A stretch of 64,000 bases of DNA, taken from assembly GCF_006345805.1 (NCBI RefSeq), contig NW_021832232.1, positions 434,001 through 498,000 of the forward strand, read 5' to 3'. A model generated the notes under the pieces. It was not told the DNA's origin, did not search any database, and worked only from the letters and a program-made list of their open reading frames with translations. The position numbers and the translations under genes are program-made. Source of the stretch: Octopus sinensis (taxonomy: Eukaryota). Position 1 is the first letter of the stretch. The number at the start of each line of letters is the position of its first letter. This document shows, piece by piece, positions 11,497 to 52,125 of this stretch.

Positions 11497-11625
11497 CTCT
11501 AAGTACTCTCTTATTACACCGTTTCGGACAGAACTTGAAATTCGACACTCGCTTTATCGTGGTTCCTCTTTGTTAGGGTTGGGGTTAGGGTTGGGGTTAG
11601 GAAAATTAGATTAGATTATTTTACT
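11497..11625 (-). repeat. One unit of the Merlin-derived telomere-like minisatellite
   Basis: Near-identical reverse complement of the units at 51609-51980; contains (TTAGGGTTGGGG)2TTAGG. Confidence 0.85.
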
Positions 11626-12384: not shown

Positions 12385-13789
<1,405 letters not shown>

Positions 13790-13840
13790 TTGTTAATTCT
13801 AATTAATTAAATTTTGAATAAAATAAAGTGTACCCGCGTG

Positions 13841-14746
13841 ATGTTTGAGGTCGTGCTTGAAAAGTCTTCATTGTTTAAGAAACTGTTGGACACACTGAAG
13901 GACCTGATAGAGGAGGCCTCGTTCGACTGTTCTCAGGACGGAATGACCCTACAAGCGATGGACAGTTCTCACGTGGGACTGGCATCTCTGTTGTTGAGCC
14001 CTGCGGCCTTCTCCTCATATCGATGTGACCGCAACATATCCCTGGGAGTAAAGATATCACAGTAAGAAATGAGTGGACTATCATAGACTGTGGAAAGTGT
14101 TTCGATGCATCAGCAGTGATGACAAACTGACATTAAAATGTGAGGACGAGCCCAACTGTCTCCTCATCGAGTGCGAAGATGGTAGAGGAGGGTGACATTG
14201 TAGAGTCCGAGTCCTGTTCCAGTTACGAAGTGGCACTCATCAACATCGACCAGGAGCATTTGAGTATTCCCGTTAGTGAGTCCCCACATTCTCTAGGAGA
14301 TCGAATATGATGCCCAAGTCCTCATGAGTTCTGCCAGGTTTCACAGAATCTGTAAGGACTTTACTCAGTTCTGTGACGAGGTGACCATTCGTTGTGATCA
14401 GAATACTGTCACCTTCATCTGCGGGGGTGACACTGTCAAGGGTATTACTCCTCCTTTACCACAGCCGAGGTCGCCTTGTCCCAAATCAGTCATGTCGACA
14501 AGGAGGACACTGTCACTATTGATATTGAAAATCCTGTCACTGTCAAGTTTTCTCTTCGTTTTTTGTCACTTTTCTCCCGTGCTTCCGCTCTGTCGCCCAG
14601 GATGGTTATTTCTGTGTCTAACTCCAGTCCACTTTGTAGTTCTTTTATTTATTCCAGCTGTTGAGTATGATTTGGCTACTGACGACCCCGCAGACAAGAG
14701 CGTCCTCAAGTTCTTCCTTGCTCCCAAGGTCGATGATGTTCTTTAA
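13841..14746 (+). CDS. PCNA: Proliferating cell nuclear antigen (divergent), 6 exons
   Basis: MFEVVLEKSSLFKKLLDTLKDLI..LQAMDSSHV..YRCDRNISLG..NIDQEHLSIPE..KFFLAPKVDD; introns of 25, 22, 25, 23 and 22 nt. Confidence 0.95.
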
Positions 14747-20989: not shown

Positions 20990-23189
20990 CTAATCAACTT
21001 CCTCTAATTGAGACGGTTCTTCGACATCGGCAGCAACAGGCGCGACTTGTTCGGATGTATTCTCGGCCTCATCGATTTCAACATCTAGTAAGAATAAAAA
21101 CAATAAAATACCAAGAGCGCAGGCCACAATAGTATTAATGGCAGAAATAAACTTGGAAATATTTGGTACAGAAAATCCACTTTGTACAGCAGCTTGAGTA
21201 TGAAGCAAATCAATAGATTTAAGCAAAGCAGTAGAATTTTCGTTTTCTTTATTTTCCCTTTGCAAACCAATAATAATAGGATGGTAAGGATTAAGCTCCA
21301 TCTTCTTTTTTGCACTCATATATCCCATTGTGGACTTGTCACGAAGGGCCTGATTTTGCATGATCCTTTCCATGTTAGCAGACCACCCATATTGAGAGGT
21401 TACAATGCAGCAGGGCGACTTCTGAAGACGATTACTGACATAGACTTCTTCAATAGCTGTTCCAAGATGAGCCTTGATCTTTTCACAAAGAGGTTTAAAC
21501 TCTTCTTTCAATTCCTCTAATTTCTTCTGCTCATCCTCGTCAACCGGGAGTTTAAAGTTCTCTTTGGTAACATCAACCAAGTTATTCCCCTTATAATTTT
21601 TGATTTTCTGAACTGCATATTCGTCAATCGGATCAACAAGATACAAAACTTCATATCCCTTTCTATTCAGCTGCTCAATGGACGAGTTCAACGAAACGGA
21701 GGCAACATCCTCACCACATATATAGTAGATCTCATTTTGCTTTTCCTTCATTCTCTTCACATAGGAATCAAAATCAGTTAATTCTGTTCCTGATTTATTC
21801 GACTTGAACATTACAAGCTCAACCAGTGTCTCCTGATTGGTGGAATCCTCATGGATACCAAGCTTGACGCTCTTGTGGTACTGTTCGTAAAATTTCGCAT
21901 ACAACTCTTTATTTTGTTTCATTTCGAGTAACATGTCCAAAACTTTTTTAACAATGTTCTTTCTAATAACTTTGAGAACTGTATTGCTCTGCAACGTCTC
22001 TCTTGAAAGGTTGAGAGGCAAGTCGTTGCTATCAACCAACCCCTTCAAAAAGTTCATATATTCAGGGACAAGCTCATCACACTCGTCCATTATAAAGACT
22101 CTTCGGACATATAACTTGATTCCAGATTTCTTCTTCTTTGTTTCAAAAAGGTCAAAAGGAGCCCTCTTAGGCACATAAATGAGAATTGTGAACTCCAACT
22201 GTCCTTCCATAGAATAGTGCTTCACTGCCAAATGTTCTTCCCAATCATTTGAAATCGACTTATAGAACTCGGCGTATTCAGTCTCGGTAATATCTGAGGG
22301 ACTTCTAGTCCAAATCGGCTTGACTTTATTAAGCATTTCCATCTCATTATGCTTTTCCTTGATCTTTTTCGTCTTCTTTCCTTTATTCTCTTCAGCCTTC
22401 TCCATCTCTTCTTCGTCCAATTCTTCTATTTTCGGCTTATCATCTTCTTTCTCGCCTTCTTCCTCGTCATCAGTAACTTCAATTTCACGCTCTTTAAGGA
22501 CTCTCAAATTTATTGGGTAGGAGATGAATTCAGAATGTTTCTTTACGACTTCTTTGAGTCTCTTTTCCTCTGCAAACTCAAGTTTATCTTCTTTCAATTT
22601 GAGAATAACAGCAGTTCCACGGTTAAAACCCGGATAAGGATCACATGTGCTCACATTAAATGTCCCATCTAATGTGCTCTCCCACAAGTGTGCGTCGTCG
22701 TCGTTACTTTTGCTAATTACTTTGACATAATCAGCAATCAGAAAGGCCGAATAAAATCCGACACCAAACTGTCCAATCATGGTCAAATCGTTACCCTCCT
22801 AAATTAAAGTAATTTAGGTAATCGACCATACCGTCTGAGATTCCAAAAAGGCTCTAGTTCCTGTATGAGCGAGGGTTCCAAGATTCTTAATAAGCTCACA
22901 TCTGGTCATTCCAATTCCGGTGTCAATGATTGTTAAGGTTCCCTCGGCTTTGTCTGGAATCATCTAAACATATTTTATTAATGAAACTAACATCAATTTT
23001 GAGTTCCTCGCCAGTACTGAGCTTTGAGGGATCACTTAGACTCTGAAAGCGAATCTTGTCTAGAGCATCGGAAGAATTTGAAATAAGTTCTCTGATAGCA
23101 GTTTCGGGATATTTATAAATGGAATTGCAAAAGAGGTTCAAAATTCGCTTAGAATCAGAAGCAAATTCATAAGTCTGAGCGGCACACAT
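20990..23189 (-). CDS. HSP90: Cytosolic HSP90 (divergent), three short introns
   Basis: [65 protein letters not shown], terminal LEEVD. Confidence 0.97.
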
Positions 23190-23222
23190 GTCGAATATGT
23201 CGTTCACGCTATCTAAAATTAG

Positions 23223-31500: not shown

Positions 31501-32732
31501 TTTATTGTAATTATTTATTTGGAAAAGCAATATCAATTTCAGTAAAATTAGAAGTCAAAAAAAACTATTCCGTTGTATATAAATTTAAGAGTAATAAATG
31601 GGAAAGATGAAATAAGAAAGTTTATTCAGCTAAAAATGAAGAACAATGAGAAAGGAAATCTCTTCAAATCGAATTTGTCGAAATAGCAAGTCCGGTTAAG
31701 AGAATTTAGGAGAATATTTCTGATGACTGTGTTTGTAACCCTCTTATGCCGGGTTATCTTAATTTTAGGTGCTCACTTGAAGAGTCATTTGTATTCAAGC
31801 ACAGAAGTTTGAATCTTCTGTCTCAAAAAGCTACTCGAAATCATCGAGTAAATTGATTCCACATTTTGATAGCGGCCCAAAAAATTTTTTGAACGGTAAA
31901 ATTCTCATATCTGCAAGAAGATGAATATGTCTATAAGCTAAAAATTATTACTAAAAATGCTATCAAGCTTTACAAATAATCAAAGATTTTTATAATCAAT
32001 TCAGAAATTTTGACGTTAATAGGTCTAATGGCTTAAATAAAACAAGTAAGGCTTTCACGAAAGACGAAAACTACATGATTTAGATAATTTTTATGGATTC
32101 TGTTATCCGCCATCTTCTAATAATCGCCAAATTTATAGAACTCCTATTTTTGGCGGATATGAAAGACATGTAACTATTGTCGCAAAATTTTCAATTTAGT
32201 CAACGTCGAAGATAGTGGGGATCTGTCAAAAAATTCACTCTAAAGGGATTCATTAATCAATATTTTTTTAATAAATAGCCGTAAATTCATTGATGACACC
32301 TGACATGGTTTCACCCTCAGCTATCGACATAATATGATTTTAAAATTTATTAGAAAATAATTATAAACTATTTATTATCGTTGCCATAATATAACACGAT
32401 TTTTGCCAGAGAAACCATTTTTTATGAACAATTAAAAATGAATTTTTAATATTCAAAGAAGAAAAGCAAATTCTCTTATTATAATAATTCTTATTATGTA
32501 TTTCTAGCAAAATCGAAATTTTTTAGTTAAAAAAATTATATTTTTTACTTAGTGGTGCTAAAACATGAATTGAACAGAATTTAATAATGATTTTTTCACA
32601 AAATATTTTTTTCCAATTTTAACTTAAATTAATAAAAAAACTTAAAAATATAATTTATTAATATAAAATATATTTTTTAATTGGCAAACCTTATATCACA
32701 AGATTGACAACGCAATAAATTGATTGCAAATA

Positions 32733-33233
32733 ATGGTTTTTCATTTTGCTGTGGTTATATCTTTAGGTTCTTTCTTCTGGTGTCAAAGTTAATGACGAGG
32801 TTATATCGCGCTTTAACGACATGAAACTAAAAAGGACAAAACCACATTTCCTAGTATTCGGGTACTGCAATAACTACGAACAAATCGAGCTAAAATATTC
32901 AGGAGAAGAGTTTAATGATCTCACTGATGGTAAAAATTAAATTAAGTTACTCCCTGTAGAGGAGGCTTTTGATAAGCTGTTAGACTACATTCGCTCTACA
33001 GACGATTGTTTTTATTTGGTTGTCGATATTGTTGGTAAGCTGCTCCTGATAAAATGGTTAAACTAATAAAATACAAAATTACTAGGAATAATGAAAGATC
33101 TGGTATTAAAAGCCGAATGATGATTGCTTCTTCTTTTAATGAAATGAAGATTAAGTTGCAAACCAAGAGCATTGAAGTCAATGACATAAACGATTTGAAG
33201 TACAGCGATATTGTTAGGGAAGTCAGAAAGTGA
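32733..33233 (+). CDS. ADF/cofilin, 4 exons
   Basis: M-VLSSGVKVNDEVISRFNDMKLKR..DDCFYLVVD..KLLLIKWNNERSGIKSRMMIASS..IEVNDINDL; intron immediately after the ATG, as is common in cofilin genes. Confidence 0.85.
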
Positions 33234-34153
33234 CGCCGTTTTGTTAATTTTGGATTCCTTTGTTTCTACAATAATGCAATTAATTTCATTAATAAATTTG
33301 ATTATTTCAATTCACAGTAGTTATATTTAGTTTAAATTCTGTACAAATACCACCATGAGGCTGGCTTTTAAGTGCGCTTATCGTAGTTATCTAAGATTAT
33401 TTAACTGCGAAATTTTTCTTATTTTTAATAAAGTTTTTAAGGTTTAATTAGATATATAGCCTCAAAAATGTTTGCCTCTAAATATATAATTGATTTAAGT
33501 TAAAGATATTTATTTAATAGCTTTGATATCATCTACCTGTCCATCGATCACTTTTATCATCAATTGTCAATAATATCACTCTTCAATGATGTTATAATCT
33601 ATATTATCACAGTTGGAGACGTTCAATTAAAAATAAAGTTGTGAAAAACTATATCAGCAGATGCATCACTTATAAAAGTTATGATCAATTAATCAAAAAA
33701 CCGCAAACCAAAAAATAATAATTTTCTTTTCTAGCAATTATCAACAGTAAAATTTTACAAAAGTTTCTTAAATATTTCATTTCTACTTTAAATTATTATC
33801 TAAGCCGATATTGAAAGTAATACGAGTTAATAGTTAAATTATTTAAAATTAACGATCGATTGAAATAGCAAAATACAAAAAGTAAAGTGAAACTTTTTTG
33901 TTACGATACTTAAATGTAAAAAGTTTTATAGTATATTTACGACCTGAAAAATTTAGAATCATAAATATTTAACATTTTTGTGAGAAAAAAATTGTTTATA
34001 TCTGACCTGAATACTAACGATTTTTATTTTGACAGATTGCAAATTATCCTAAAAAAGTTGATCAATCACATTAAATTGAATATAATTTTTTGGTCCATAT
34101 GTTACAATTAATGATATATTATGAAAAAAATAACATATTTTCAGGATCATTCA

Positions 34154-37100
34154 ATGCTAGGGATTATACTAATATTAGTAATCCAGTGCCAGAGGTTATT
34201 TGCTAATAATGCAGTGAATTCTTCAAGGTAATGCTTTTTTAATTTTTTAATTTAGATATTGCAACGTAACTAAACAAGTTACCGAGAAAAAAACTGATCT
34301 TTGTCGAAATTTTATTGATATGCTTTACGACAGCTGGTTCCTTGCAGAAAGTTACTCTAAATATTCAAGAAATGATTTGCTACAATTGTTAGAGACTAAA
34401 AGTGATAAATTGTGTGACTATGCCCGGTATATATTTTAATATGTCTTATAATAGAAATGTTTCTGTGGAAGTGCAAACATGTTGCGAAGGCTACACTGGA
34501 CAACTTTGCGATAAACGTAAAAATTCTCATCTCTATTATAGCTGTTTGCTCGCCAAAATGCTTAAATGGAATTTGCATAGCACCAAATGTGTGTAATTGC
34601 AAAGACGGATTTGCCGGATTCAGATGTGAAGACGATCTATCAAGTTTTTTTTACATAAAAAACAATTAAACCTCAACAGAAATAACTAATGAATTAAAAT
34701 ACTGCTATAAATACAACAAATGTTATGGGGAAAAGTACTTTGATCAAAGTGGAATTAGCAATTCAAACTCAATAAAAACATTTTCCGACTGTTGTTCATT
34801 TAATATACAGGGTTCATGGGGATATCCTGGAAACCACACTTGCTTACCATGCCAATCTGGTTTTTATAAATGTTTAATTTACACATAGATCAAACAGGTG
34901 CGACGATGAATAATTCGTATGGTATATTTCTGAAAATATATTTATAGTTTTAACAATAAAGAATAAATATGCTTTACCCTTTTCTACATGTGAGAATTCC
35001 TTTTCACACTATCGGACATTTGATGGAAGAGAATATACATTTTACAGCCAATGTTGGTACACTCTTGTTGCAAATCCTTCCAATTCGATAACAATAAGTG
35101 CCTTAGCGTCGAACTGCAAAAGTTGTCTTATGTGTAGAAAAGTTAGTTTGTATATTTAATAATTATAGGAAATGAGAATTGTCGTAGAAAAAGATCCTAT
35201 AGTCACTTTCAAAGGAAATGAAGTTCTAGTTGATGGGGTCAAGATTTCTACGAACACTACTTATTTTAGCGACAGTTTTTTCATATTTAATTAAAAACTT
35301 AAAGTGTTTGAGATATCAAAAACTCATTCCTACGTTAATTACGTTAATAAAAGAGGGATTCGAATAAAATGGGAGTCCACATCAGGGAATGTTATCCATA
35401 TTACAATGAACAAAATTTTCCAGCAATCAGAGTTTCGGGGACTTTGTGGGCTATTTGACGGGAATATTCAAAGTAAAGTTGAATAAAATACAAATTTTAA
35501 GATGATTTTACAACGATCAATAACATTGTTACTCAGGATGTCGCAAAATTTGCAAATTCTTTTAAAGAAGGTTATAGCAAAGTATCTAGTTTCTCGTAAT
35601 TTTTAGTGTCCTGATGGATACACTGGTTTGCCAAAATGTTCAGATCCTACTTTTATTAAAGAAGCTGAAATTCAATGTAGTAAAATAAATTCCAATTTGT
35701 TCTCTGCTTGTTCTCAAAGAGTGATTTTTTGTTTTCAATTACTAAAGGTTGATCCGAAAGGATTATACGAACGATGCAAAAAGGAATATTGCTATGCTCG
35801 TGAAACATCGACAATTGAAGAAGCAAATGCTCTTCTCTGTGCCACTTTGGAAGAATATTCTTCGTTTTGTTCTGAATCAGGACTTAATATTCACTGGAGA
35901 ACTTCCAAGATATGCCGTATCTTTGACTATCATATCATAAATAGCAATTAAATGTCCTGGAAATATGGAATACACCGAATGCATAAATTCATGTACAACA
36001 TGCTCATCAATGCCACATCTTCTGAAAAAGTGCAACGATGACTGCACTCCTGGATGCCAGTGTCCCAGTGGAACATTTTTTGATGGAAGAAATTGTGTAG
36101 AAGCGAAATACTGCCCTTGCTACTTTGGGAAGAAAATATATGAAAATGGTGAAATAATAAAACAAAATTGTAAAACATGGTTTCAATTAAAATTAACGAC
36201 TTATAGCGTATGTAAATCAGGTTTTTGGCAATGTCCAAATATCGAGTGTCCAGGAGAATGCCAATTAATTGGCATTGGAAACTATTTAACATTTGATCTC
36301 GAAAGCTTTAAACATTTATATAGTAATCCATGCATATACGAACTTCTTAAAGTATTTCTATAATCAACATTTTTTTAGCTAAGAGAAGAAGATCTATCCA
36401 TATCTGTTGACAATTCTCAGTGTAGTGTAGGAGATAAAAACAGTCTTTATGGAAACAATACTATTTGTCAGCGAAAGATTTTAATAACAATAAGAAAGTC
36501 GACTTCAATCCTACTTCATTCATTTAATAAGAATCCAATTGTGCAAATAAACAACATTTCTCTAAAAAATTTTCCACAACATAGCAAATTTTTCAGAATC
36601 CGTAAAATTGAACCAAATTTTATAATGCTATCGCGCTATGGCCTTCATATTCTTTGGGATTTGCAGTCCCGGATTTATATAACCTTGGGAAACTTTCATC
36701 TCCGAAAAGTATTAATATCATTTAAATGACATTTTAGTCACTTGGAATGTGTGGGACATTTGATTACAATTCAAAAAATGAATACTTGACGAGAAGTGGA
36801 AGCCTTGAATTTAACTACAAATCCTTGGCTAAGGAATACACTTTAAGTACACAAGACCAATGCCAAACTGCAAGTGCAGTGCTTCTAGAGTGTCCAATTA
36901 AAATAAAGGTTGATTTTTTAAAGATTCAATTTTTAGAATGAAGCTATTCTAAATTGTGAACCATTGATAGAAAATCAGGGCATACTGTCAAAGTGTTTCG
37001 AAGCTGTCAATTCTCCAGAATATCATCAAATGTGCATAAAAGATATATGTGCTATGAATGGGATCCAAGCTAACCAAGTTGCCTGCATTCACATTTCTGC

Positions 37101-40100
37101 TTATGTCTACGAATGCGCGAAGAAAGGAATAAATGTAACATGGGACGCACTCCGAATGAAATGCGGTGAAAAATAAAAATATTTTTGTAGGTATAAATTG
37201 TCCCGAAAACAGTGAGTTTCACAATTGCATGTCACCATGTGGACTACATTGTCACGAAAATGAAGGGAACGATGAAGAATGCAAATCAAACTGTGTTCCA
37301 GGATGTAAATGCAAAGATGGGATGATTTTTGATGCCAATGGTCGTTGTGTTCATCGGAGTAACTGCACTTGTATTGATAAAGATATCACATATAAGAATC
37401 ATGATAAATTTTCTACGTCCTCAATGAATTGGTGATTAACTTTCATTCTTAACTACAGCATTTGCATCGAAGGAGTAATTAAGTGTCACAAAAAAAATTC
37501 TTCTATATCATGCCCAAACAATTTAGTTCAAAGAATAACTAAAGGGTGTCCAAAACGTTGTGATTCGACTCAAGACGAACTTGAAGAATGTGCTAATAAT
37601 ATTTATCATGGCTGTGGCTGTAATGAAGGATATGTTTTATCTCAAATGGTATGCCGTTAATTTTTTGTAATAATATTTGTAGAATGAATGTGTTATGCCA
37701 GATGAATGTCCGTGTTTTCATGCAAATAAATTTTATAAATTCGGTGATAAAATTGGATCAAAATGTTCTAACTAGTAAAATTATAGTTTAATTTCATTTA
37801 AAAGTATCTGCAAAAATAAAGTTTGGATTAAAAATACAGATAGTCAAGAATGTGGAGGTAATTTATGCTAAATACTTTACATTTAGGCACCTGTACTACA
37901 TACGGAGATTCACATTTTGTAACATTTGATGGGAAGGCTTTCTCGTTTGAAGGACAATGCAAATATACTATTGCAAAGTCAAAAGCAAATTCCTCTTTTG
38001 TAATAAATACTCAAAATTTTGCATGCGGAGTATCAGGTAGGAATAAATAGTCACTAAATATTAAAGGTCTAACATGTTTGAAATTAGTGGAAATAATAAT
38101 TGAAAACGTTCAAATTCAACTTGGTGATAACAATGAATTTATAATAAATGGGCGTAAATTAACAAACGATTATCATGCTAAACATATTCATATCATATAT
38201 AAACATCAATCACATGTTCGTGTGATCTCCGAAAAAATTGGCTTTGAAATACTCTGGGACAAAGGAACGACAGTTTATATTTATCTAAATCGAAAATGGA
38301 TGGGAAAAGTTACCGGACTTTGTGGTGACTTTGATAACAATCAACTAAACGAATTTACAACTCCTAGTCTTGCATTTCTCAACTCGGCTGATGATTTCGC
38401 AAATTCTTGGCGTGTTCCTAGTTCGGAATGCAGTATGAATTTTAATAAAACTTCCGGAAACTTTCTGAAAATTTGTCCACATAATGTATTTGAATTATTG
38501 TAAATTTTTAGGAAAGATTTAAGTGGGCTAATGATAAATGCTCAATTATTAATTCGGGGACTATGTTCCAGACATGTCGAGATGTCTTATCAGAAGATGT
38601 TGTAGATACTTTTTTTGAAAACTGCCTATATGATGCATGCCAGTAATAAGTTGACGAATTTAATGAATAGTTGTACTGAGGGAGGAGATTGTGAATGTTT
38701 GTGTACTTCTGTAGCTGCATTTGCACAGACTTGCACTAACAACGGGGTAGAAGTATTATGGAGATCACCATCATTTTGTCGTATCAAATAGTTTTGATTT
38801 AAGTAAAAGCTTACATGTGCCAAAATGGAAAAGAATATCATTCATGTGGTAATCCTTTGACAAAAAAATGCGATTATTCGATTTCAAAGTATTTATTGCC
38901 GACCAAAGATATGGTTTGTCACGAAGGATGTTTCTGTTCCAATAATTTGCGCGAAGATGGTATTTATATATTTTAAGTTTTATAAAGTTAATGGGAAATG
39001 TGTTGAACAGCAAGATTGCGCATGCCAGTTACGAGGAGAGTACTATGATCCCGGATCCGAAATTATAATCGGATGTGAAAAATGGTTTAAGAATAAGAAT
39101 AAATTTAGTTTTTGTAAAAATGGAAAGTTTGAATGTTCTGACGAAAATTGTATTAAATGCCAGAAAGAAGAATATAGGTGCTTAAATGGTCTACAATGTT
39201 TGCCTTTAAATAAAAAATGTGATAACAAAATTGATTGCCTTGATGGATCAGATGAAAAAAATTGCGGAGGTTTCAGCATATGAATTTTATTTTCAAGTTT
39301 CGAAATGTAAAAATGGAAGTTTTTGTTGTGATAATTTCCGGATAATCGACATTTCAATGAAATGTGATGGAATTGCAGACTGTATGGATGGGACTGACGA
39401 GGAAACCTGCGGTATTTAACTTTTAAGAAAATAATTATTTACAGAAACTTGCCAGGATGATAGATTTGACTGTGGATACGGAGAATGTATTGATAACAAA
39501 TATCGATGTGACGGAACCAAGCACTGTATTACAGGAAATGATGAGCTTAATTGCAAACCTGGAATATGCAAAAACAAAACTGAATATTCGTGTAACAACG
39601 GCGGATGTGTTAAACATACTGCTATATGTGACGGTCATGATGATTGTGGGGATGGGTCAGACGAAATTAATTGCTTTGGAGGTCTGATTTAAAATTGATT
39701 TTGATTTTAGTTTGTCATTTACGTGAATTAACAAAAACGGATTTATTCAAAATTTACAGTACTAGCAACAACAATACCATAACAAATGTGTTACACGAGA
39801 CACAGTTGTGGAAGTTTGACGAATCAGATAATGAAACAACATTCCATTATATTATTCCGAGCAAAACGATCAGAATAATGAAAATACAAGCTTCTGCAAT
39901 TAACACCGATGAAGTCATCCTTATGATGGAAATAAAAGAAAACAACCCTCAGTTGTTACATTTAATGGCAGTAATTAATTGTAATTTGATAGGAAACAAA
40001 AATTACAAACAATTTTTTCACAATTAATATCCCAGAACATGCTCAGAAAAGTCAATATTTTAAAACAGTTTTCAAAAGTAATGGGAAAAAAGCAAATAAG

Positions 40101-43100
40101 GCTGAACTTAATAATCTAAAGATTTATTATTGTGGGAAGCAAATAATTAGTAGCTGCGATGGAAAGAAACTCAATGACACACATTTTATAATTTCATCGT
40201 CTTCAAATGCGATAGGTAAAACAGCAGATATGGCAAAAATGGTCCATAATTCATGGAATCCGTCTGCCATAGACCCAAACGTGCATCTAGACTTGTATTT
40301 TGGAGAGAAAAATAAACCTATAATAAAAATAATCAAATTTGATATGACGACACCATCAAGAGTAATAGTATCTACAAAGGATAACAAGGATTCAAAATAC
40401 ACAATATATAAAGTCAGTAATTTATTGTCATAACAAAATAGAACATAATATCACTAAAAATGAATTTTGAAATAGAAATGAACAATAATTTTTCAGCAAG
40501 AAATATAAAATTTGAATTTTTTGGAATAGAAAATAATTTAACAAGAAATGAAATATATATTAATCAACTAGAAGTAATAGGATGTGGAGGAAAATTAATA
40601 GGTAAATAATAAGAACAAATAAAATTAGAACAAAATAAAACAAGAGAAGAAATTAACAACACACCAACAGGTAAGAAAAGATTGAATAAAAATTAAAAAG
40701 GAAAATGTGAAAATACAACGACATTATTAGAATTGATGGGAAAATATCCAATGAACTTAGGGGAGCAAAAAAGCTATGTGGTAATACGAAATGAGAGCTT
40801 AAAAATAATAATATCAAACAAAGAAAAATGGGTGGTAGAAAGAATTTATGGAACAGTAAATGAAACAGAAAAAATAATGAAAGTAATTGTAGAAACAGAT
40901 GACATTGAAAAAGTAAAGAAAAATATTTTAAAAATTAGAGAAAAGAATTTACAAAAAATTTTGACATGCAAATAAAAAGCAAAACAAATATAATAGAGCT
41001 GACAATATTAAATACTGATACAAACCAATTGCTAAAAAACAAAATAGAAAAATTGAATATAATCGGATGTATAAGTAGGATAAAATATAAAATTAAAAAT
41101 AGGAGAATTCAATACAGTAAAACAAACGACAAAATATAGTACTGCATATACATCAGAATATAAAATACCAATCTATACAAATAAACCTAAAAACGAATCG
41201 ACAATTGAAAAAATGCCAACAATAACAAGTATAAAGATTTTTTTATTAATCACAAATAGGCAAAATAACTACTGAAAAACCAACCACTGAGCATCTTACA
41301 ACAGAGAAGACTACTGAAATTAATGTCCCAATATATACCACTGAATCCACAACTCAAAAGATGCCAACAATTACAAGTATGTTAATTTTGTACTATTTTT
41401 ATTAGAAGAAGAAATCACTAGCAAAAAACCAACCCCTGAGCATACAACACACCAAAAAACAACAGAAATCAATGTTCCAATTTATACAACTGCACCCACA
41501 ACTCAATTGATGCCGACATTACAAGTTTTTAATAATTAGATTATTTATCGAAAAGAAGTCATCACAACAGAACAACCTACCACGGAACACCCAACGACTG
41601 AAAAAACAACTCAAATTAATGTCCCAATTTACACGACCGAACCGACAACTCAAAAAATGCCAACAATAACAGTTTAAAGATTTTTTTATTAATCACAAAT
41701 AGGCAAAATAACTACTGAAAAACCAACCACTGAGCATCTTACAACAGAGAAGACTACTGAAATTAATGTCCCAATATACCACTGAATCCACAACTCAAAA
41801 GATGCCAACAATTACAAGTATGTTAATTTTGTACTATTTTTATTAGAAGAAATCACTAGCAAAAAACCAACCCCTGAGCATACAACACACCAAAAAACAA
41901 CAGAAATCAATGTTCCAATTTATACAACTGCACCCACAACTCAATTGATGCCGACAATTACAAGTTTTTAATAATTAGATTATTTATCGAAAAGAAGTCA
42001 TCACAACAGAACAACCTACCATGGAACACCCAACGACTGAAAAAACAACTCAAATTAATGTCCCAATTTACACGACCGAACCGACAACTCAAAAAATGCC
42101 AACAATAACAAGTTTAAAGATTTTTTTATTAATCACAAATAGGCAAAATAACTACTGAAAAACCAACCACTGAGCATCTTACAACAGAGAAGACTACTGA
42201 AATTAATGTCCCAATATATACCACTGAATCCACAACTCAAAAGATGCCAACAATTACAAGTATGTTAATTTTGTACTATTTTTATTAGAAGAAATCACTA
42301 GCAAAAAACCAACCCCTGAGCATACAACACACCAAAAAACAACAGAAATCAATGTTCCAATTTATACAACTGCACCCACAACTCAATTGATGCCGACAAT
42401 TACAAGTTTTTAATAATTAGATTATTTATCGAAAAGAAGTCATCACAACAGAACAACCTACCATGGAACACCCAACGACTGAAAAAACAACTCAAATTAA
42501 TGTCCCAATTTACACGACCGAACCGACAACTCAAAAAATGCCAACAATAACAAGTATAAAGATTTTTTATTAATCACAAATAGGCAAAATAACTACTGAA
42601 AAACCAACCACTGAGCATCTTACAACAGAGAAGACTACTGAAATTAATGTCCCAATATATACCACTGAATCCACAACTCAAAAGATGCCAACAATTACAA
42701 GTATGTTAATTTTGTACTATTTTTATTAGAAGAAATCACTAGCAAAAAACCAACCCCTGAGCATACAACACACCAAAAAACAACAGAAATCAATGTTCCA
42801 ATTTATACAACTGCACCCACAACTCAATTGATGCCGACAATTACAAGTTTTTAATAATTAGATTATTTATCGAAAAGAAGTCATCACAACAGAACAACCT
42901 ACCACGGAACACCCAACGACTGAAAAAACAACTCAAATTAATGTCCCAATTTACACGACCGAACCGACAACTCAAAAAATGCCAACAATAACAAGTTTAA
43001 AGATTTTTTTATTAATCACAAATAGGCAAAATAACTACTGAAAAACCAACCACTGAGCATCTTACAACAGAGAAGACTACTGAAATTAATGTCCCAATAT

Positions 43101-46100
43101 ATACCACTGAATCCACAACTCAAAAGATGCCAACAATTACAAGTATGTTAATTTTGTACTATTTTTATTAGAAGAAATCACTAGCAAAAAACCAACCCCT
43201 GAGCATACAACACACCAAAAAACAACAGAAATCAATGTTCCAATTTATACAACTGCACCCACAACTCAATTGATGCCGACAATTACAAGTTTTTAATAAT
43301 TAGATTATTTATCGAAAAGAAGTCATCACAACAGAACAACCTACCACGGAACACCCAACGACTGAAAAAACAACTCAAATTAATGTCCCAATTTACACGA
43401 CCGAACCGACAACTCAAAAAATGCCAACAATAACAAGTTTAAAGATTTTTTTATTAATCACAAATAGGCAAAATAACTACTGAAAAACCAACCACTGAGC
43501 ATCTTACAACAGAGAAGACTACTGAAATTAATGTCCCAATATATACCACTGAATCCACAACTCAAAAGATGCCAACAATTACAAGTATGTTAATTTTGTA
43601 CTATTTTTATTAGAAGAAATCACTAGCAAAAAACCAACCCCTGAGCATACAACACACCAAAAACAACAGAAATCAATGTTCCAATTTATACAACTGCACC
43701 CACAACTCAATTGATGCCGACAATTACAAGTTTTTAATAATTAGATTATTTATCGAAAAGAAGTCATCACAACAGAACAACCTACCACGGAACACCCAAC
43801 GACTGAAAAAACAACTCAAATTAATGTCCCAATTTACACGACCGAACCGACAACTCAAAAAATGCCAACAATAACAAGTTTAAAGATTTTTTTATTAATC
43901 ACAAATAGGCAAAAAACTACTGAAAAACCAACCACTGAGCATCTTACAACAGAGAAGACTACTGAAATTAATGTCCCAATATATACCACTGAATCCACAA
44001 CTCAAAAGATGCCAACAATTACAAGTATGTTAATTTTGTACTATTTTTATTAGAAGAAATCACTAGCAAAAAACCAACCCCTGAGCATACACACACCAAA
44101 AAACAACAGAAATCAATGTTCCAATTTATACAACTGCACCCACAACTCATTGATGCCGACAATTACAAGTTTTTAATAATTAGATTATTTATCGAAAAGA
44201 AGTCATCACAACAGAACACCTACCACGGAACACCCAACGACTGAAAAAACAACTCAAATTAATGTCCCAATTTACACACGACCGAACCGACAACTCAAAA
44301 AATGCCAACAATAACAAGTTTAAAGATTTTTTTATTAATCACAAATAGGCAAAATAACTACTGAAAAACCAACCACTGAGCATCTTACAACAGAGAAGAC
44401 TACTGAAATTAATGTCCCAATATATACCACTGAATCCACAACTCAAAAGATGCCAACAATTACAAGTATGTTAATTTTGTACTATTTTTATTAGAAGAAA
44501 TCACTAGCAAAAAACAACCCCTGAGCATACAACACACCAAAAAACAACAGAAATCAATGTTCCAATTTATACAACTGCACCCACAACTCAATTGATGCCG
44601 ACAATTACAAGTTTTTAATAATTAGATTATTTATCGAAAAGAAGTCATCACAACAGAACAACCTACCACGGAACACCCAACGACTGAAAAAACAACTCAA
44701 ATTAATGTCCCAATTTACACGACCGAACCGACAACTCAAAAAATGCCAACAATAACAAGTTTAAAGATTTTTTTATTAATCACAAATAGGCAAAATAACT
44801 ACTGAAAAACCAACCACTGAGCATCTTACAACAGAGAAGACTACTGAAATTAATGTCCCAATATATACCACTGAATCCACAACTCAAAAGATGCCAACAA
44901 TTACAAGTATGTTAATTTTGTACTATTTTTATTAGAAGAATCACTAGCAAAAAACCAACCCCTGAGCATACAACACACCAAAAAACAACAGAAATCAATG
45001 TTCCAATTTATACAACTGCACCCACAACTCAATTGATGCCGACAATTACAAGTTTTTAATAATTAGATTATTTATCGAAAAGAAGTCATCACAACAGAAC
45101 AACCTACCACGGAACACCCAACGACTGAAAAAAACAACTCAAATTAATGTCCCAATTTACACGACCGAACCGACAACTCAAAAAATGCCAACAATAACAA
45201 GTTTAAAGATTTTTTTATTAATCACAAATAGGCAAAATAACTACTGAAAAACCAACCACTGAGCATCTTACAACAGAGAAGACTACTGAAATTAATGTCC
45301 CAATATATACCACTGAATCCACAACTCAAAAGATGCCAACAATTACAAGTATGTTAATTTTGTACTATTTTTATTAGAAGAAATCACTAGCAAAAAACCA
45401 ACCCCTGAGCATACAACACACCAAAAAACAACAGAAATCAATGTTCCAATTTATACAACTGCACCCACAACTCAATTGATGCCGACAATTACAAGTTTTT
45501 AATAATTAGATTATTTATCGAAAAGAAGTCATCACAACAGAACAACCTACCACGGAACACCCAACGACTGAAAAAACAACTCAAATTAATGTCCCAATTT
45601 ACACGACCGAACCGACAACTCAAAAAATGCCAACAATAACAGTTTAAAGATTTTTTTATTAATCACAAATAGGCAAAATAACTACTGAAAAACCAACCAC
45701 TGAGCATCTTACAACAGAGAAGACTACTGAAATTAATGTCCCAATATATACCACTGAATCCACAACTCAAAAGATGCCAACAATTACAAGTATGTTAATT
45801 TTGTACTATTTTTATTAGAAGAAATCACTAGCAAAAAACCACCCCTGAGCATACAACACACCAAAAAACAACAGAAATCAATGTTCCAATTATACAACTG
45901 CACCCACAACTCAATTGATGCCGACAATTACAGTTTTTAATAATTAGATTATTTATCGAAAAGAAGTCATCACAACAGAACAACCTACCACGGAACACCC
46001 AACGACTGAAAAAACAACTCAAATTAATGTCCCAATTTACACGACCGAACCGACAACTCAAAAAATGCCAACAATAACAAGTTTAAAGATTTTTTTATTA

Positions 46101-48658
46101 ATCACAATAGGCAAAATAACTACTGAAAAACCAACCACTGAGCATCTTACAACAGAGAAGACTACTGAAATTAATGTCCCAATATATACCACTGAATCCA
46201 CAACTCAAAAGATGCCAACAATTACAAGTATGTTAATTTTGTACTATTTTTATTAGAAGAAATCACTAGCAAAAAACCAACCCCTGAGCATACAACACAC
46301 CAAAAAACAACAGAAATCAATGTTCCAATTTATACAACTGCACCCACAACTCAATTGATGCCGACAATTACAATTTTTAATAATTAGATTATTTATCGAA
46401 AAGAAGTCATCACAACAGAACAACCTACCACGGAACACCCAACGACTGAAAAAACAACTCAAATTAATGTCCCAATTTACACGACCGAACCGACAACTCA
46501 AAAAATGCCAACAATAACAAGTTTAAAGATTTTTTTATTAATCACAATTAGGCAAAATAACTACTGAAAAACCAACCACTGAGCATTTTACAACAGTAAA
46601 GATTACTGAAACTAATAGTCCCGTTTTCTCTTCTTTATCTTCAACCGTTAAGACATCTCCTTTTCCCAGTTTTCTTTCTGTATGTATTTTTTAGAATTTT
46701 GTCCTTCTAATTTCTCCTCTATTCCTAAATCTTTAATTGAAGCTCTTCCTTCCTCCTCCTCATTAGATCATCTTATTGTTAATATTTTTTCTGAATCTGG
46801 TTATTGGTCTCCTTCTGATTCTTTGTCTCAATACATTACTTTCCGTTTTAAAATGTTCAATCCTAAGCTTGTTTCTCTTAATATTCATCTTTCTGGAGCT
46901 GATTCTATTCGTATTCTTTCTGGTAATTATTCTGATAATTTGATATTCCATTCGGTTTATTTTTGTATTTTTATTTTAGTCTCACAATGTTGATTTTTCT
47001 TCTCATAAATTGTTTGTTAATTTTCTTTCTCCTTATACTCTTACTGCTCAGTATTTATCTCTCCAGTTTTTGTGCTCTTCTTCTAATAATTATTCTTGCC
47101 AGAATCTTAAAGTTTTGTTTGTTGACATTGTCGCTTGCTCGGATGAAGGTTTCCCTTTAATTCTTTTTTTAGATATCATCATTTCAAAAGTTTCAACTTT
47201 TTGTATTGTTCAAGTTTTTATTTTATTATAGCAACCACCACTAAGAAACCAGTTAACGTTGGAGTTCCTTGTAAATTCCCTCCTAATGGTTAATTCGTTT
47301 TTTAACGTTTTAAGAATGTTCTAATCAAGTCTTTAATATTGCCGGTCCCGAGAATTTGCACAATGTCAAAATTACTGCATCAAGTCATCTGAACGGAACT
47401 GACCCACGTTTTATATTTTCAAATGAAAATGTATTTTTATTAAAAATATATATTCAGGAATGGATTCCCATTCCGTCTGACAATAAACCCTTTATAAAAC
47501 TTGAATTTCCGTTTTATTTAAAGACTATTGTTAGCGATTTTGAACTTACAATGCCAAATCTTATTATGGTCAATATCGAAATTAAACTTTTCTATCTTGG
47601 AAATGAAATTTTTTTTGTATCTTTAGAAAAATAATTTATCATAGACTAAATTGGTTTCATTAAGTGGTCTAATTAAAATGGACTTTATAGAAAGGTTCAA
47701 TTCTACGTATTTGGTTGACACAATCTTGATTTCTTTTGATAGCCCAGATATATCTGCATACAAATTTATTGTCAATGGGTGTTTCAAAAATAGAACTAAA
47801 TGTTATTTATTTATTCATTACTTTTTAGTTGAAACTCCAACGACTATTAAATATTCTGAATGTTTAAGTTTTACTTGTTTACTTTTAGATTGCAAGCCCC
47901 TTTCACTTCTTACTCCAGAAAATTCGGATCATTTCTACCTTGAGTCATCTGAAGGATCTCCACTAGATCTTCTTAATGATGATACTTGGACCGCTAAAAA
48001 TGACAACTCCTACCTTACCATCAACTTAAAAAACAATTTACAGATTGTTGCTGTTTCTCTCAAGACTAACAATCTGGCTCTTTCTACTATTAAAGCAATA
48101 CTCGAAGGAAACGAGGGAATTAAGCACGTTCATGTTAGGCTATATACGAAATAATATTTATAGACACTCATTCCTAAGTTTCTGCAGGATTCTTCTTTAC
48201 TTTTTATGAAACCAATTTTGGCTAGAAAAATAACATTGATTTTTAAAAAAGACGAAAATCATTTGGACGGTCTAATTGAAATTAGAAATTTGAATGTTGA
48301 AATTTGTACATCTGATGGTTGTTTATGTTTATGATTTGTAGATGAAAAATGTAGTTTGAAAACAAAAACTGAAGAATTGAAAAACGATGAATGTATTTCT
48401 TTAAATAATGTTACACATTCTTATTGTCACGGAAATTGTGATTCCGGGACTAATTTAGTTTTTCGGGTATATATTCACAAGTTAAAGTTTTATTAGAATA
48501 TGACTGTACATGCTATTAATAAATGTTATTGTTGCAGTGGAATAGTAGATAAAACTAATCCATTTATTCCGGTTGAAATGAAATGCAGAAACAGTATCAA
48601 TTCAATAAAAATACCAAAATATGCAGCATGTTATTGTAGATCGTGTGGAATTCATTAA
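34154..48658 (+). CDS. Large secreted SCO-spondin/hemolectin/gel-forming-mucin-like protein: signal peptide, EMI/EGF-like, 3 vWD-C8-TIL blocks, LDLa repeats, FA58C-like domains, PTS repeat, C-terminal cystine knot
   Basis: HYRTFDG..GLCGLFDG, NYLTFD..GMCGTFD, GDSHFVTFDG..GLCGDFDNN; TIL CPGNMEYTEC; LDLa CDNKIDCLDGSDEKNC, CDGHDDCGDGSDE; terminal YCHGNCDSG..CYCCSG..CYCRSCG*; dozens of tiny introns. Confidence 0.85.
41229..46620 (+). repeat. 442-bp higher-order tandem repeat, 12 full units plus a partial; each unit is three 117-nt Thr/Pro-rich exons plus introns of 31, 29 and 31 nt
   Basis: Unit marker aggcaaaa recurs at about 41258, 41701, 42141, 42582 ... 46550; exons encode variants of KITTEKPTTEHLTTEKTTEINVPIYTTESTTQKMPTIT. 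Confidence 0.95.
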
Positions 48659-50499
48659 ACTCTAAAATTAAATTTATGTTGTCAATTAAACTAAAATTTG
48701 CTGTAATAACCAAATTAAAGTTTATTAATTTTTTATATTTAAAATTTATTAATAGCATCAATTAGTCAAAAGTGAATGAGTGATGATTGACCCTTAGCAA
48801 AATCTAATAAAAATATTTTAATCTCCAAGATTAATTTTTGCAAAGTTCGTATAGTTTAACGTTGATTTGTAATCAATATACAGTACTAATATTAAGGACT
48901 AAGTGTGTCTTAGCTTGTGTCTTACCTCCAAAAGACGAGTTATGGTTTGGCAGTTTTTAATTAAGTGACCGTTTTTGGTTGTGAATATTTTTCTTGGTTT
49001 TTAATAATTTCTGAATTTATGAGTGGGATAGTAATGATCGATTTACCTATTTATATTGTTTATAATTAATGTTGAGCACATTTTAAATCCCAATAATTTG
49101 AAATTTAAATACCACATTCATTAGAGTTTCTAAAAATATAAAAATCCCAAGTCGTTTTGAAAAAATGGAAATTTCAGAAAGAAATAATTTTTTACTTACA
49201 CAGAACCCGATTTACAATCCATGTTGCCGGGATAAATTAGTTTTTATACCATGATATATGTTTTTCATAAACTATCTTAATTAAAATTAAGTATTTTTAA
49301 TAAATCTGATATGTTTTGGATTCTTAATATATTTGTCTATAAATAAAGATCAATAAATAAAGATTAACTTGAAAATTTTTAGTTTTATTATTTTTAAAAG
49401 TGTTGGTATGAGATTCAATCAATTTTGTCGTCATTTGCCAGTCAGTGAAAATGCATAACGCTGAGTTGATTAAGATTTATTCATATGTAAATTATCGCGA
49501 ATTTTTTTAATGAAATCTCCATGGGTGTCTTTAATTGTTAAATTTATTTTATTTAGTACCAGGAAAAATTTCTATAAAGAAATTCAAATAGTACGCCAGA
49601 CTGAAACTGGAATAGTGACTCATCTATTTTTTTCTAACTTTTTATAGTTTCACCAGAAAGAAGAACGAATCAAGAAATTATGGAGTATCCTTTAATTATT
49701 GTATTTGATTATTTTAGAACGACATCAGAGAATTTAAAAATATATTTAAGAAATTTATTTCCAGATTATGAGTTGGAAAATGTGGAATACATATAATAGA
49801 CCCGAATTAATAATTACTACATTGTTGATTGATCTCGAATTTATAAACGACTTTGAATATTCTGAATTTAAGTTATGATAGAAAATCCAAATAAAATAAT
49901 ATTGGATTGGATTTATATTCATAACCTCATGATATTGTTGATAGTTTAGTGAGCCGACGACATGCTTTTTGTTCATCTTGGAGTATTTTGTTCATTTTAA
50001 CCAAAATTCAGAATTCTTAAAATTATTTTAGTGGGAAAGTTTTAAGGACCTCATCGTGTGAGTCGGAGACATTGTAATTGTTTATTTTAACAAAAATGCA
50101 GAAAATAATTTTTTTGATTTTTTAGCGGGAAGGTTTAAAGGACTTCATAATCATGTGAGTCGAGGACATGCGTGTTGCCCATTTTATCCAAAATCTAGAG
50201 AATATTTTTTTTAATTTTTGGCGGGAAGGTTTTAAGGACCTTATGATTGAGGATATTCTTGATATGTTTGTTTTTTGGATGAAAGATTTTTGGAAAACCT
50301 CATCATTTTGGGCTTGTTCCCCATTATTGGCGAATTCTGAGGGAGAAGGATTTTTACAATTTATCTTTACTTTGCCAAATTGAAGTTGGTGCATACACAC
50401 AGACAGGCAGACACACACACCATACAATTTCGAAATATTAATTTATGTAAACATTGACTTTTCTATAGTACACAAATCCAGATATTAGTTAATTAAACT

Positions 50500-51440: not shown

Positions 51441-52125
51441 CACGAAAATAGGTACTAAATTAACTAATGAATTGAAGGACTACGAACTCCCTCGCTCTGA
51501 GATGGAGTCCGTAGCCTTCCTTCAGGAGGTTGGAATCATTCCAACCGAAAAGAAATGCGCCAAAAGACATCTGATGACCCTAAAGCGAGATGGTACAACT
51601 TGGGTGTGCGATAAAAGCGAGTGTCGAATTTCAAATTCTGTCCGAAACGGTGTAATAAGAGAGTACTTTAGAGTACTAACCCTAACCCCAACCCTAACCC
51701 CAACCCTAACCCCACCCTAACCTAACAAAGAGGAACCGCGATAAAAGCGAGTGTCGAATTTCAAGTTCTGTCGAAACGGTGTAATAAGAGAGTACTTTAG
51801 AGTACTTTAGAGTACCAACCCTAACCCTAAACCCCAACCCTAACCCTAACAAAGAGGAACCGCGATAAAAGCGAGTGTCGAATTTCAAGTTCTGTCCGAA
51901 ACGGTGTAATAAGAGAGTACTTAGAGTACTTTAGAGTACCAACCCTAAACCCCAACCCTAACCCTAACAAAGAGGAACCTCACGCCACTATATGGGTGAA
52001 TACTTTGCAGGTATTAAATATTTAGATTTAATTTGTAGAATTTTTATGGAGAAGGCAAGTAAGCCATTTGGACAACGCATTCGACGAATTGTTAGACGCA
52101 ATCGTGCAATTTTGCCAACTTTGAA
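51440..52125 (+). mobile_element. Internally deleted Merlin (IS1016/ISXO2-like) transposon
   Basis: N-terminal zinc ribbon ESVAFLQEVGIIPTEKKCAKRHLM..WVCDKSECRISNSVRNG; C-terminus QRGTSRHYMGEYFA|28-nt intron|EFLWRRQVSHLDNAFDELLDAI; DDE core absent. Confidence 0.75.
51609..51980 (+). repeat. Three ~125-bp tandem units containing CCCTAA/CCCCAA telomere-like tracts
   Basis: Unit: cgataaaagcgagtgtcgaatttcaagttctgtccgaaacggt-gtaataagagagtactttagagtac-(ccctaa/ccccaa)n-caaagaggaacc. Confidence 0.95.

What the first reader, a model, noticed from the sequence alone, without database searches (positions are those of the whole stretch)
40400..47250. Mirror-image strand skew flanking the tandem array
Seen: about 800 bp before the array is extremely A-rich and C-poor (introns such as gtaagaaaagattgaataaaaattaaaaag; Ile/Lys/Asn/Glu-rich exons), while about 650 bp after it is extremely T/C-rich (introns such as gtttatttttgtatttttattttag; Ser/Leu/Phe-rich exons). 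Both flanks are the same strand of one gene and encode similar domain types, and the skew fades with distance. Transcription direction cannot explain the flip. Inference: the array is a persistent origin, fork barrier or break/resection centre whose mutation bias has rewritten the protein composition.
Basis: partly seen in the sequence, partly recalled or inferred. Interest (0 to 1): 0.7.

Follow-up and report, generated by a model that had tools for sequence, protein, structure and literature searches.

The report
Mirror mutation scar around mucin array
On either side of a tandem exon repeat in a parasite's mucin-like gene, silent sites are almost all purine on one side and almost all pyrimidine on the other, likely a scar of error-prone DNA repair that starts in the repeat and that appears to have changed the protein's amino-acid make-up.

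Summary
In one intact mucin/SCO-spondin-like gene of a compact-genome animal (likely a dicyemid co-assembled with its host), four-fold sites read 52 purines:3 pyrimidines before a near-identical 12 x 441-bp exon array and 9:75 after it. Introns read 83:32 and 18:66. The skew decays over about 1 kb, and short-read contigs show the same letters. The array's edge units drifted from the interior copy in mirror directions. A 77%-identical copy of the gene has no array and keeps only about half of the skew, roughly what decay since the split predicts. The flanks are not specifically complementary. However, none of 23 other arrays in 1.85 Mb flips (most are short or mobile-element-borne), and one array-free gene (CID domain, Pcf11-like) shows a same-polarity flip. 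So an array is neither sufficient nor necessary. Best reading: strand-biased mutagenesis in repair tracts of about 1 kb that run outward from a constantly recombining array. An origin fits the polarity but not the short reach. It works like break-flanking asymmetry at recombination hotspots, but is near fixation, has a different spectrum and lowers GC. The mechanism is inferred, not shown.

The parts
33999..48658 (+). Mucin/SCO-spondin/hemolectin-like gene (VWD, LDLa, F5/8-C-like domains, Thr-rich array, C-terminal cystine knot); start codon not fixed
   Evidence: Curated 48-intron model outside the array, open to the stop at 48656-48658; Pfam VWD E 6e-18, LDLa E 1e-19, Cys-knot E 0.0017 below cut-off; aligns over 33999-41086 and 46687-48682 with a copy on C2292. 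Family names beyond Pfam are recalled.
40001..41193 (+). Purine (A)-rich left flank, core 40401-41193
   Evidence: Four-fold sites 52R:3Y and introns 83R:32Y in the core; 31R:12Y at four-fold sites in 40001-40400
41075..41259 (+). Left edge unit: diverged copy of the array's third subunit
   Evidence: Against interior unit 4: Y>R 25 of 76, R>Y 13 of 97, p 0.003
41194..46622 (+). Tandem array of 441-bp units, each three Thr/Pro-rich exon+intron subunits (71-73% alike)
   Evidence: TRF; 12 whole units differ from their majority by 5 substitutions in all, plus 25 indel positions, likely long-read errors; subunit identity
46552..46694 (+). Right edge unit: near-identical to the repeat for about 60 bp, then diverged towards T/C
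   Evidence: R>Y 21 of 76 (A>T 14, A>C 5, G>T 2), Y>R 3 of 67, p 0.0002
46623..47650 (+). Pyrimidine (T)-rich right flank, core 46623-47250
   Evidence: Four-fold sites 9R:75Y and introns 18R:66Y in the core; 13R:27Y at four-fold sites in 47251-47650
39713..41070 (+). Three Cys-bounded domains before the array; the middle one F5/8-type-C-like
   Evidence: boundaries, cross-similarity z up to 4.6; Atlas 0.94
46700..48307 (+). Three Cys-bounded domains after the array; the middle one F5/8-type-C-like
   Evidence: Atlas 0.95

Best explanation
The two flanks carry a mirror-image purine/pyrimidine bias at near-neutral sites, likely left by strand-biased mutation in repair tracts of about 1 kb that start inside the constantly recombining array and run outward. 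Shown: the strand running 5'->3' away from the array is depleted of A and G and enriched in T on both sides; the A:T ratio at four-fold sites shifts about tenfold each way (46:3 left, 7:65 right, 167:144 far); edge units changed in these directions; the array is highly homogenised. Inferred: breaks or slipped, unequal exchanges in the array trigger resection and re-synthesis (single-strand annealing, synthesis-dependent annealing or short break-induced replication). In that geometry the outward-running strand is the one re-made, so A>T, G>T and A>C on it would come from pyrimidine-pyrimidine mispairs or lesion bypass on the single-stranded template, or from purine lesions on the nascent or displaced strand. 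Interior units would see both polarities and be reset by homogenisation; unique flanks would see one polarity only and accumulate it, pushing tolerant domain positions to Lys/Asn/Ile/Glu or Ser/Phe/Leu. The polymerase or lesion is unknown.
For: Neutral-site flip across all 8 four-fold codon families plus introns, Mantel-Haenszel OR 16.5, p 1e-27. Polarised edge-unit changes. Left introns are A-rich up to the acceptor, against the genome-wide T excess in predicted introns. Decay of 0.75-1.2 kb is on the scale of the 1-2 kb resection and strand-asymmetric flanks in human hotspots (PMC7615360, section 4 read). The array-less copy on C2292 keeps 0.60 (CI 0.42-0.77) of the four-fold excess and 0.44 (0.19-0.67) of the intron excess, against 0.73-0.76 expected if the bias stopped at the split. 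GC at four-fold sites is low in the flanks (6 of 55, 12 of 84, far 111 of 459), which fits mutation more than GC-biased conversion. Strongest flip in 1.69 Mb, min z 7.8. No flank complementarity.
Against: 0 of 23 other arrays flip (range -0.19 to +0.06), including a 57-bp x 13 coding array in a single-copy gene; none is as long and homogeneous inside a gene, so the test is weak. An array-free gene shows a same-polarity flip (OR 15). Recent changes in the right flank are balanced: 7 R>Y and 7 Y>R transversions among 32 of 38 polarised differences to the 95% relative in run X2, which is compatible with equilibrium but gives no positive support. Four-fold divergence between gene copies is not raised in the flanks (0.32, 0.43 vs 0.42). 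The human hotspot spectrum (C>N and A>N on the forward strand) matches only for C. Direction of the array's loss or gain is unrooted, and the leftover linker exon matches only 1 of 3 subunits weakly (20 of 1000 shuffles).
Confidence: 0.5

Rival explanations
1. The site is a recombination or break hotspot in its own right; the array is a by-product of it, not its cause.
For: A same-polarity flip without any repeat in a CID-domain gene at C9300:591573-593703, kept in copies about 91-94% alike (69R:26Y vs 21R:80Y). The array-less gene copy still flips at the same point (37:7 vs 22:50). Human hotspots bias tandem repeats towards expansion (PMC7615360 passages).
Against: The array-less copy has decayed at least as far as a full stop of the bias predicts. 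The array-free site is GC-rich (four-fold GC 0.56) while these flanks are GC-poor, so the two may have different causes. 69 local GC peaks show no flip on average.
Confidence: 0.18
2. The array is a fixed replication origin (or fork barrier), and leading/lagging-strand error bias made the skew.
For: In yeast, Pol epsilon favours T-dT and Pol delta A-dA mispairs, giving one AT-to-TA bias around origins (PMC4216917 passages). By my derivation this gives A>T on the + strand right of an origin, as seen.
Against: A reach of about 1 kb is far shorter than replicons (own knowledge). Only 2 strong flips in 1.85 Mb, fewer than origins should give. MutS homologues occur on 5 non-chromosome contigs, so mismatch repair is probably present. 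A barrier would give the reverse polarity under the same signatures (inference).
Confidence: 0.12
3. Not mutation but biased repair of heteroduplex DNA: purine-purine and pyrimidine-pyrimidine mismatches are fixed unequally on each side of exchanges starting in the array.
For: Would give exactly a purine/pyrimidine, mirror-symmetric bias without raising divergence; all four transversion types go the same way at the left edge.
Against: Needs allelic heterozygosity in the flanks; GC is lowered rather than raised; no direct test.
Confidence: 0.1
4. Selection on the protein or the RNA (domain charge, splicing across the array, flank-to-flank pairing that loops the array out).
For: Amino-acid bias is equally strong in both gene copies.
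Against: Skew is strongest at four-fold sites and introns. Left flank vs reverse complement of right: 137 of 300 shuffles score as high; duplex energy -91.6 vs shuffled -96.9+-7.2.
Confidence: 0.07
5. Long-read or assembly artefact beside an unpolished repeat.
For: The array holds indel errors.
Against: Short-read contigs match both flanks; reading frames are intact; a relative in run X2 and the second gene copy share the pattern.
Confidence: 0.01

Closest known systems
Strand-asymmetric mutagenesis flanking meiotic double-strand-break hotspots (human; PMC7615360, section 4 and passages read)
   Same: Rotational symmetry about a centre, 1-2 kb reach, loss of C on the strand that would be single-stranded, link with tandem-repeat instability.
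   Different: Here the bias is near fixation at silent sites and reaches amino acids; the main change is T>A on the inward-running strand, not A>N; the centre is a 5.4-kb coding array; breaks are not shown.
Purine-to-pyrimidine skew across mouse DMC1 hotspots (Smagulova et al. 2011; recalled, paper not held)
   Same: As recalled: purine-rich 5' of the centre and pyrimidine-rich 3' of it, the same polarity.
   Different: As recalled, a small average over thousands of short-lived hotspots; here one locus with a tenfold A:T shift and low GC.
Replication-origin skew jumps and polymerase-specific strand bias (yeast; PMC4216917 passages read)
   Same: Sign flip at a centre; predicted A>T polarity matches.
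   Different: Origin bias spans whole inter-origin distances; here it is gone within 1-2 kb.
Gel-forming mucin / SCO-spondin / hemolectin family with PTS tandem repeats (recalled)
   Same: VWD, LDLa, F5/8-C-like domains, Thr/Pro-rich array under concerted evolution, terminal cystine knot.
   Different: The repeat unit includes three tiny introns; I found no report of such flank skew in 8 skew-directed searches of an incomplete library.

Membership tests
Break/recombination hotspot with strand-asymmetric flanks | Mirror (rotationally symmetric) base bias at near-neutral sites | tested here: met
Break/recombination hotspot with strand-asymmetric flanks | Reach of about 1-2 kb | tested here: met
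   Decay 1232+-249 and 748+-176 bp
Break/recombination hotspot with strand-asymmetric flanks | Human spectrum: C>N and A>N on the single-stranded strand | tested here: not met
   Left edge: C>A 6 and C>G 4 agree, but T>A 12 dominates
Break/recombination hotspot with strand-asymmetric flanks | GC-biased conversion signature | tested here: not met
   Four-fold GC 6 of 55 and 12 of 84 vs 111 of 459
Break/recombination hotspot with strand-asymmetric flanks | Ongoing asymmetric substitution | tested here: inconclusive
   7 vs 7 transversions among 32 polarised differences, right flank only
Break/recombination hotspot with strand-asymmetric flanks | Mapped breaks or ssDNA at the centre | not testable with these tools
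   Needs END-seq or RAD51/DMC1 ssDNA sequencing
Replication origin skew jump | Sign flip with replicase-error polarity | tested here: met
   Polarity derived from PMC4216917 passages; an inference across distant organisms
Replication origin skew jump | Skew extending across the replicon | tested here: not met
   Background within about 2 kb
Replication origin skew jump | Nascent-strand or Okazaki switch | not testable with these tools
   No such data
General property of tandem arrays in this genome | Flip around other arrays | tested here: not met
   0 of 23 arrays of 300 bp or more; 15 belong by period to one 94/95-bp family
Mucin/SCO-spondin/hemolectin-like protein | VWD and LDLa domains | tested here: met
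   Pfam over cut-off
Mucin/SCO-spondin/hemolectin-like protein | F5/8 type C domains on both sides of the array | tested here: inconclusive
   Atlas 0.94-0.95 for 2 of 6 domains, the only two tried; Pfam blank

The most novel reading that the evidence does not exclude
A self-homogenising coding array acts as a permanent repair centre whose outward tracts impose a tenfold purine/pyrimidine transversion asymmetry, strong and lasting enough to rewrite neighbouring protein domains in opposite directions. The skew is then a fossil record of tract length, strand and array history that can be read from sequence alone, and array-free flips mark other long-lived break sites in the same genome.
Probability: 0.4. 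Interest if true: 0.8.

Novelty: new variant of a known kind. Interest (0 to 1): 0.62.

Why it matters
If repair tracts cause it, the concerted evolution of a repeat has a measurable cost to its neighbours: a directional mutation pressure on about 1 kb each side that overrides intron composition and shifts amino acids. That would make testable how tandem arrays are homogenised in a germ line (which strand is re-made, over what length, with which errors). It would also give a sequence-only way to map long-lived break sites in unculturable animals, and it warns that local composition or amino-acid shifts beside arrays need not be adaptive.

Tried and rejected
Transcription or gene-position gradient: rejected, 134 of 268 chains positive, mean -0.02. 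GC-rich peaks as general flip centres: rejected, 69 peaks with four-fold GC of 0.5 or more; without the top locus 28 of 68 positive. Flank pairing: rejected. Raw-skew peaks elsewhere that I inspected lay on Lys/Glu-rich or mobile-element ORFs; not all peaks were inspected. The 14-kb array on C9300 is diverged (74-90%), looks non-coding and borders retroelement ORFs, so it is uninformative. Polyubiquitin arrays: +0.15 (one locus present twice at 98.9%) and +0.06 on a host chromosome; not counted among the 23. Searching the genome with the repeat exon returned only this array. No RNA holder listed, so introns are predicted, not seen in transcripts. Whether the C2292 copy is a paralogue or a second species is unsettled: neighbours are not syntenic and a neighbouring exon has one copy, which favours a paralogue; read depths differ (about 50 vs 62-78). 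The first automatic gene model overcalled introns and was replaced by a curated one. Eight skew-directed paper searches listed no report of such skew around a tandem array; the library lacks most subscription papers. Five papers were not held. Earlier scan notes: none for this genome; two bacterial analogues. No supplements were read.
Full report
Setting. The window is G000:C8703:434001-498000, a 552-kb contig in a 2.7-Gb assembly. The six contig slices first analysed have GC 0.35-0.37, and 2269 predicted introns in them have a median of 26 bp. Such short introns are reported in animals only for myxobolids and a dicyemid (PMC13644364, passages); the dicyemid genome has GC 36.7% and many repeats (PMC6736024, passages). 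I infer a co-sequenced dicyemid-like parasite; no phylogenetic test was run.

The observation. The array spans 41194-46622 (441 bp x 12.3). Purine skew is +0.39 in the 600 bp before it and -0.39 after it, against sd 0.07 and extremes of -0.24 and +0.18 in 1086 other windows. Short-read contigs of run X1, possibly the source DNA, match 40031-40864 with 1 difference and 46560-47460 with none. A curated model with 48 introns outside the array reads 1996 aa without a stop, then 594 aa to the stop. Pfam finds VWD and LDLa over cut-off and a weak cystine knot (14 exons tried). Six Cys-bounded domains flank the array; the two tried in the Atlas look like F5/8 type C.

Neutral sites. Four-fold sites read 52 purines:3 pyrimidines at 40401-41193, 9:75 at 46623-47250 and 247:212 in the far gene (left vs right p 6e-25). 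Intron interiors read 83:32, 18:66 and 266:316 (p 8e-13). The direction holds in all 8 codon families and introns (OR 16.5). Decay lengths are 1232+-249 bp and 748+-176 bp. Four-fold GC falls in the flanks. The domain just before the array has Lys+Asn+Glu+Ile 0.48 and Ser+Phe+Leu+Pro 0.15; the one just after has 0.20 and 0.46.

Direction of change. The 12 whole units differ from their majority by only 5 substitutions, so homogenisation is strong. Taking an interior unit as stand-in for the ancestor (an assumption), the right edge unit shows purine-to-pyrimidine changes at 21 of 76 purines against 3 of 67 the other way; the left edge shows pyrimidine-to-purine changes at 25 of 76 against 13 of 97. 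The three subunits inside the repeat differ from each other without such bias (12/15, 11/15, 13/13). Against this, of 38 differences to a 95% relative in run X2 (right flank only), 32 could be polarised, and their transversions were 7 each way. That fits equilibrium but shows nothing. The T>C excess there (13 vs 2) may be parsimony bias.

A natural control. A second copy of the gene on C2292 (73-78% identity) has one short exon where the array stands. It flips at the same point but more weakly: four-fold 37:7 and 22:50, introns 63:38 and 33:46, the last not different from the far gene. It keeps 0.60 and 0.44 of the window's excess; 0.73-0.76 is expected if the bias stopped at the split (assumes the ancestor was as skewed as the window). 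This fits loss of the array followed by decay, but it is unrooted, and the copy may be a paralogue.

Generality. I scanned 1,848,228 bases of seven contigs chosen through a shared repeat or a gene hit, a small part of the parasite genome. None of 23 other arrays of 300 bp or more flips (-0.19 to +0.06). Fifteen belong by period to one 94/95-bp family, mostly beside multi-copy sequence; one is a 57-bp x 13 coding array at 86% identity with flat four-fold sites. None matches this array in length, homogeneity and genic position together. A strand-symmetric gene finder (45 of 48 curated introns recovered, 46 predicted) allowed a neutral-site scan of 1.69 Mb. The top flip was this locus (min z 7.8), the second an array-free CID-domain gene at C9300:592270 (5.9), the third 3.4; the best opposite-polarity flip was 3.8. 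A further 160 kb gave at most 3.3 in this polarity and 4.2 in the opposite one, on a related statistic. The second site (OR 15) is GC-rich and persists in related copies. GC peaks in general do not flip, and genes have no 5'-3' gradient.

Mechanism. Shown: a rotationally symmetric bias, centred on the array, about 1 kb in reach, removing A and G from the strand that runs away from the array. Inferred: repeated repair events that begin in the array. After 5'-3' resection, single-stranded DNA lies left of a break on the forward strand and right of it on the reverse strand, over 1-2 kb, and human hotspot flanks carry strand-asymmetric mutations (PMC7615360, section 4 and passages). In that geometry the outward strand is the re-made one. 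The human spectrum agrees for C but not for the dominant T>A. An origin would give the same polarity by yeast polymerase signatures (PMC4216917, passages; my derivation) but not this short reach or rarity. Specific RNA pairing between the flanks is absent. Biased heteroduplex repair cannot be separated from mutation with these data.

Known and new. It works like break-flanking asymmetry at recombination hotspots; a same-polarity purine/pyrimidine skew in mouse hotspots is recalled from a paper I could not open. It is not filed as a member: two features were tested and not met, and breaks are not shown. Eight searches (listings only) gave no report of such skew around a tandem array. Two earlier AI notes describe skew switches at repeats in bacteria; I did not test them and they are not support. 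Verdict: real, strong and unusual; a new variant of a known kind; mechanism about 50%; interest 0.62.

Noticed in passing
G000:C9300:591573-593703 (L106:1573-3703): CID-domain gene (Pcf11-like, name recalled) with a sharp purine-to-pyrimidine flip at silent sites near 592270, mostly G vs C, four-fold GC 0.56, no tandem repeat; kept in copies on C12433 and C4017.
   Followed up: partly
window 12427-14740: GC-rich AAA-ATPase (VPS4-like) and PCNA-like genes (names by look); a weaker same-polarity flip near 13130 (OR 3.2, p 2e-5, site picked after scanning).
   Followed up: partly
G000:C8703:168668-169756: Another GC-rich gene with a moderate same-polarity flip (F 3.7-3.9).
   Followed up: no
window 46560-46689: Short-read depth on the repeat is about 860 vs 48 on the flank in X1, suggesting about 18 units against 12.3 assembled; the relative in X2 has 191 letters where the window has 93 at the right boundary.
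   Followed up: no
whole contig C8703, and C2292, C2502, C6303, C8591, C8702, C9300: Gene-dense contigs with about 26-bp introns inside a 2.7-Gb assembly: likely a co-assembled parasite genome, with haplotigs and 91-94% related copies of one gene.
   Followed up: partly
window 49988-50250; e.g. C9300:333624-335499: A dispersed family carrying 94/95-bp tandem arrays (up to 21 copies) at one end of a multi-copy element.
   Followed up: partly
window 51676-51979 and 11497-11601: Telomere-like hexamer runs inside a short dispersed repeat found on many of these contigs.
   Followed up: no
G000:C9300:443207-457594: A 14-kb diverged satellite-like array with strong internal GC skew (+0.5), interrupted by a retroelement-like ORF.
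   Followed up: partly
window 20993-23213 (-) and about 32700-33230 (+): Hsp90-like and cofilin/ADF-like genes (names by look, not scanned).
   Followed up: no
G000:C8901, C10412, C6303, C9075, C8597: MutS_V matches on non-chromosome contigs, suggesting the parasite keeps several MutS homologues.
   Followed up: no
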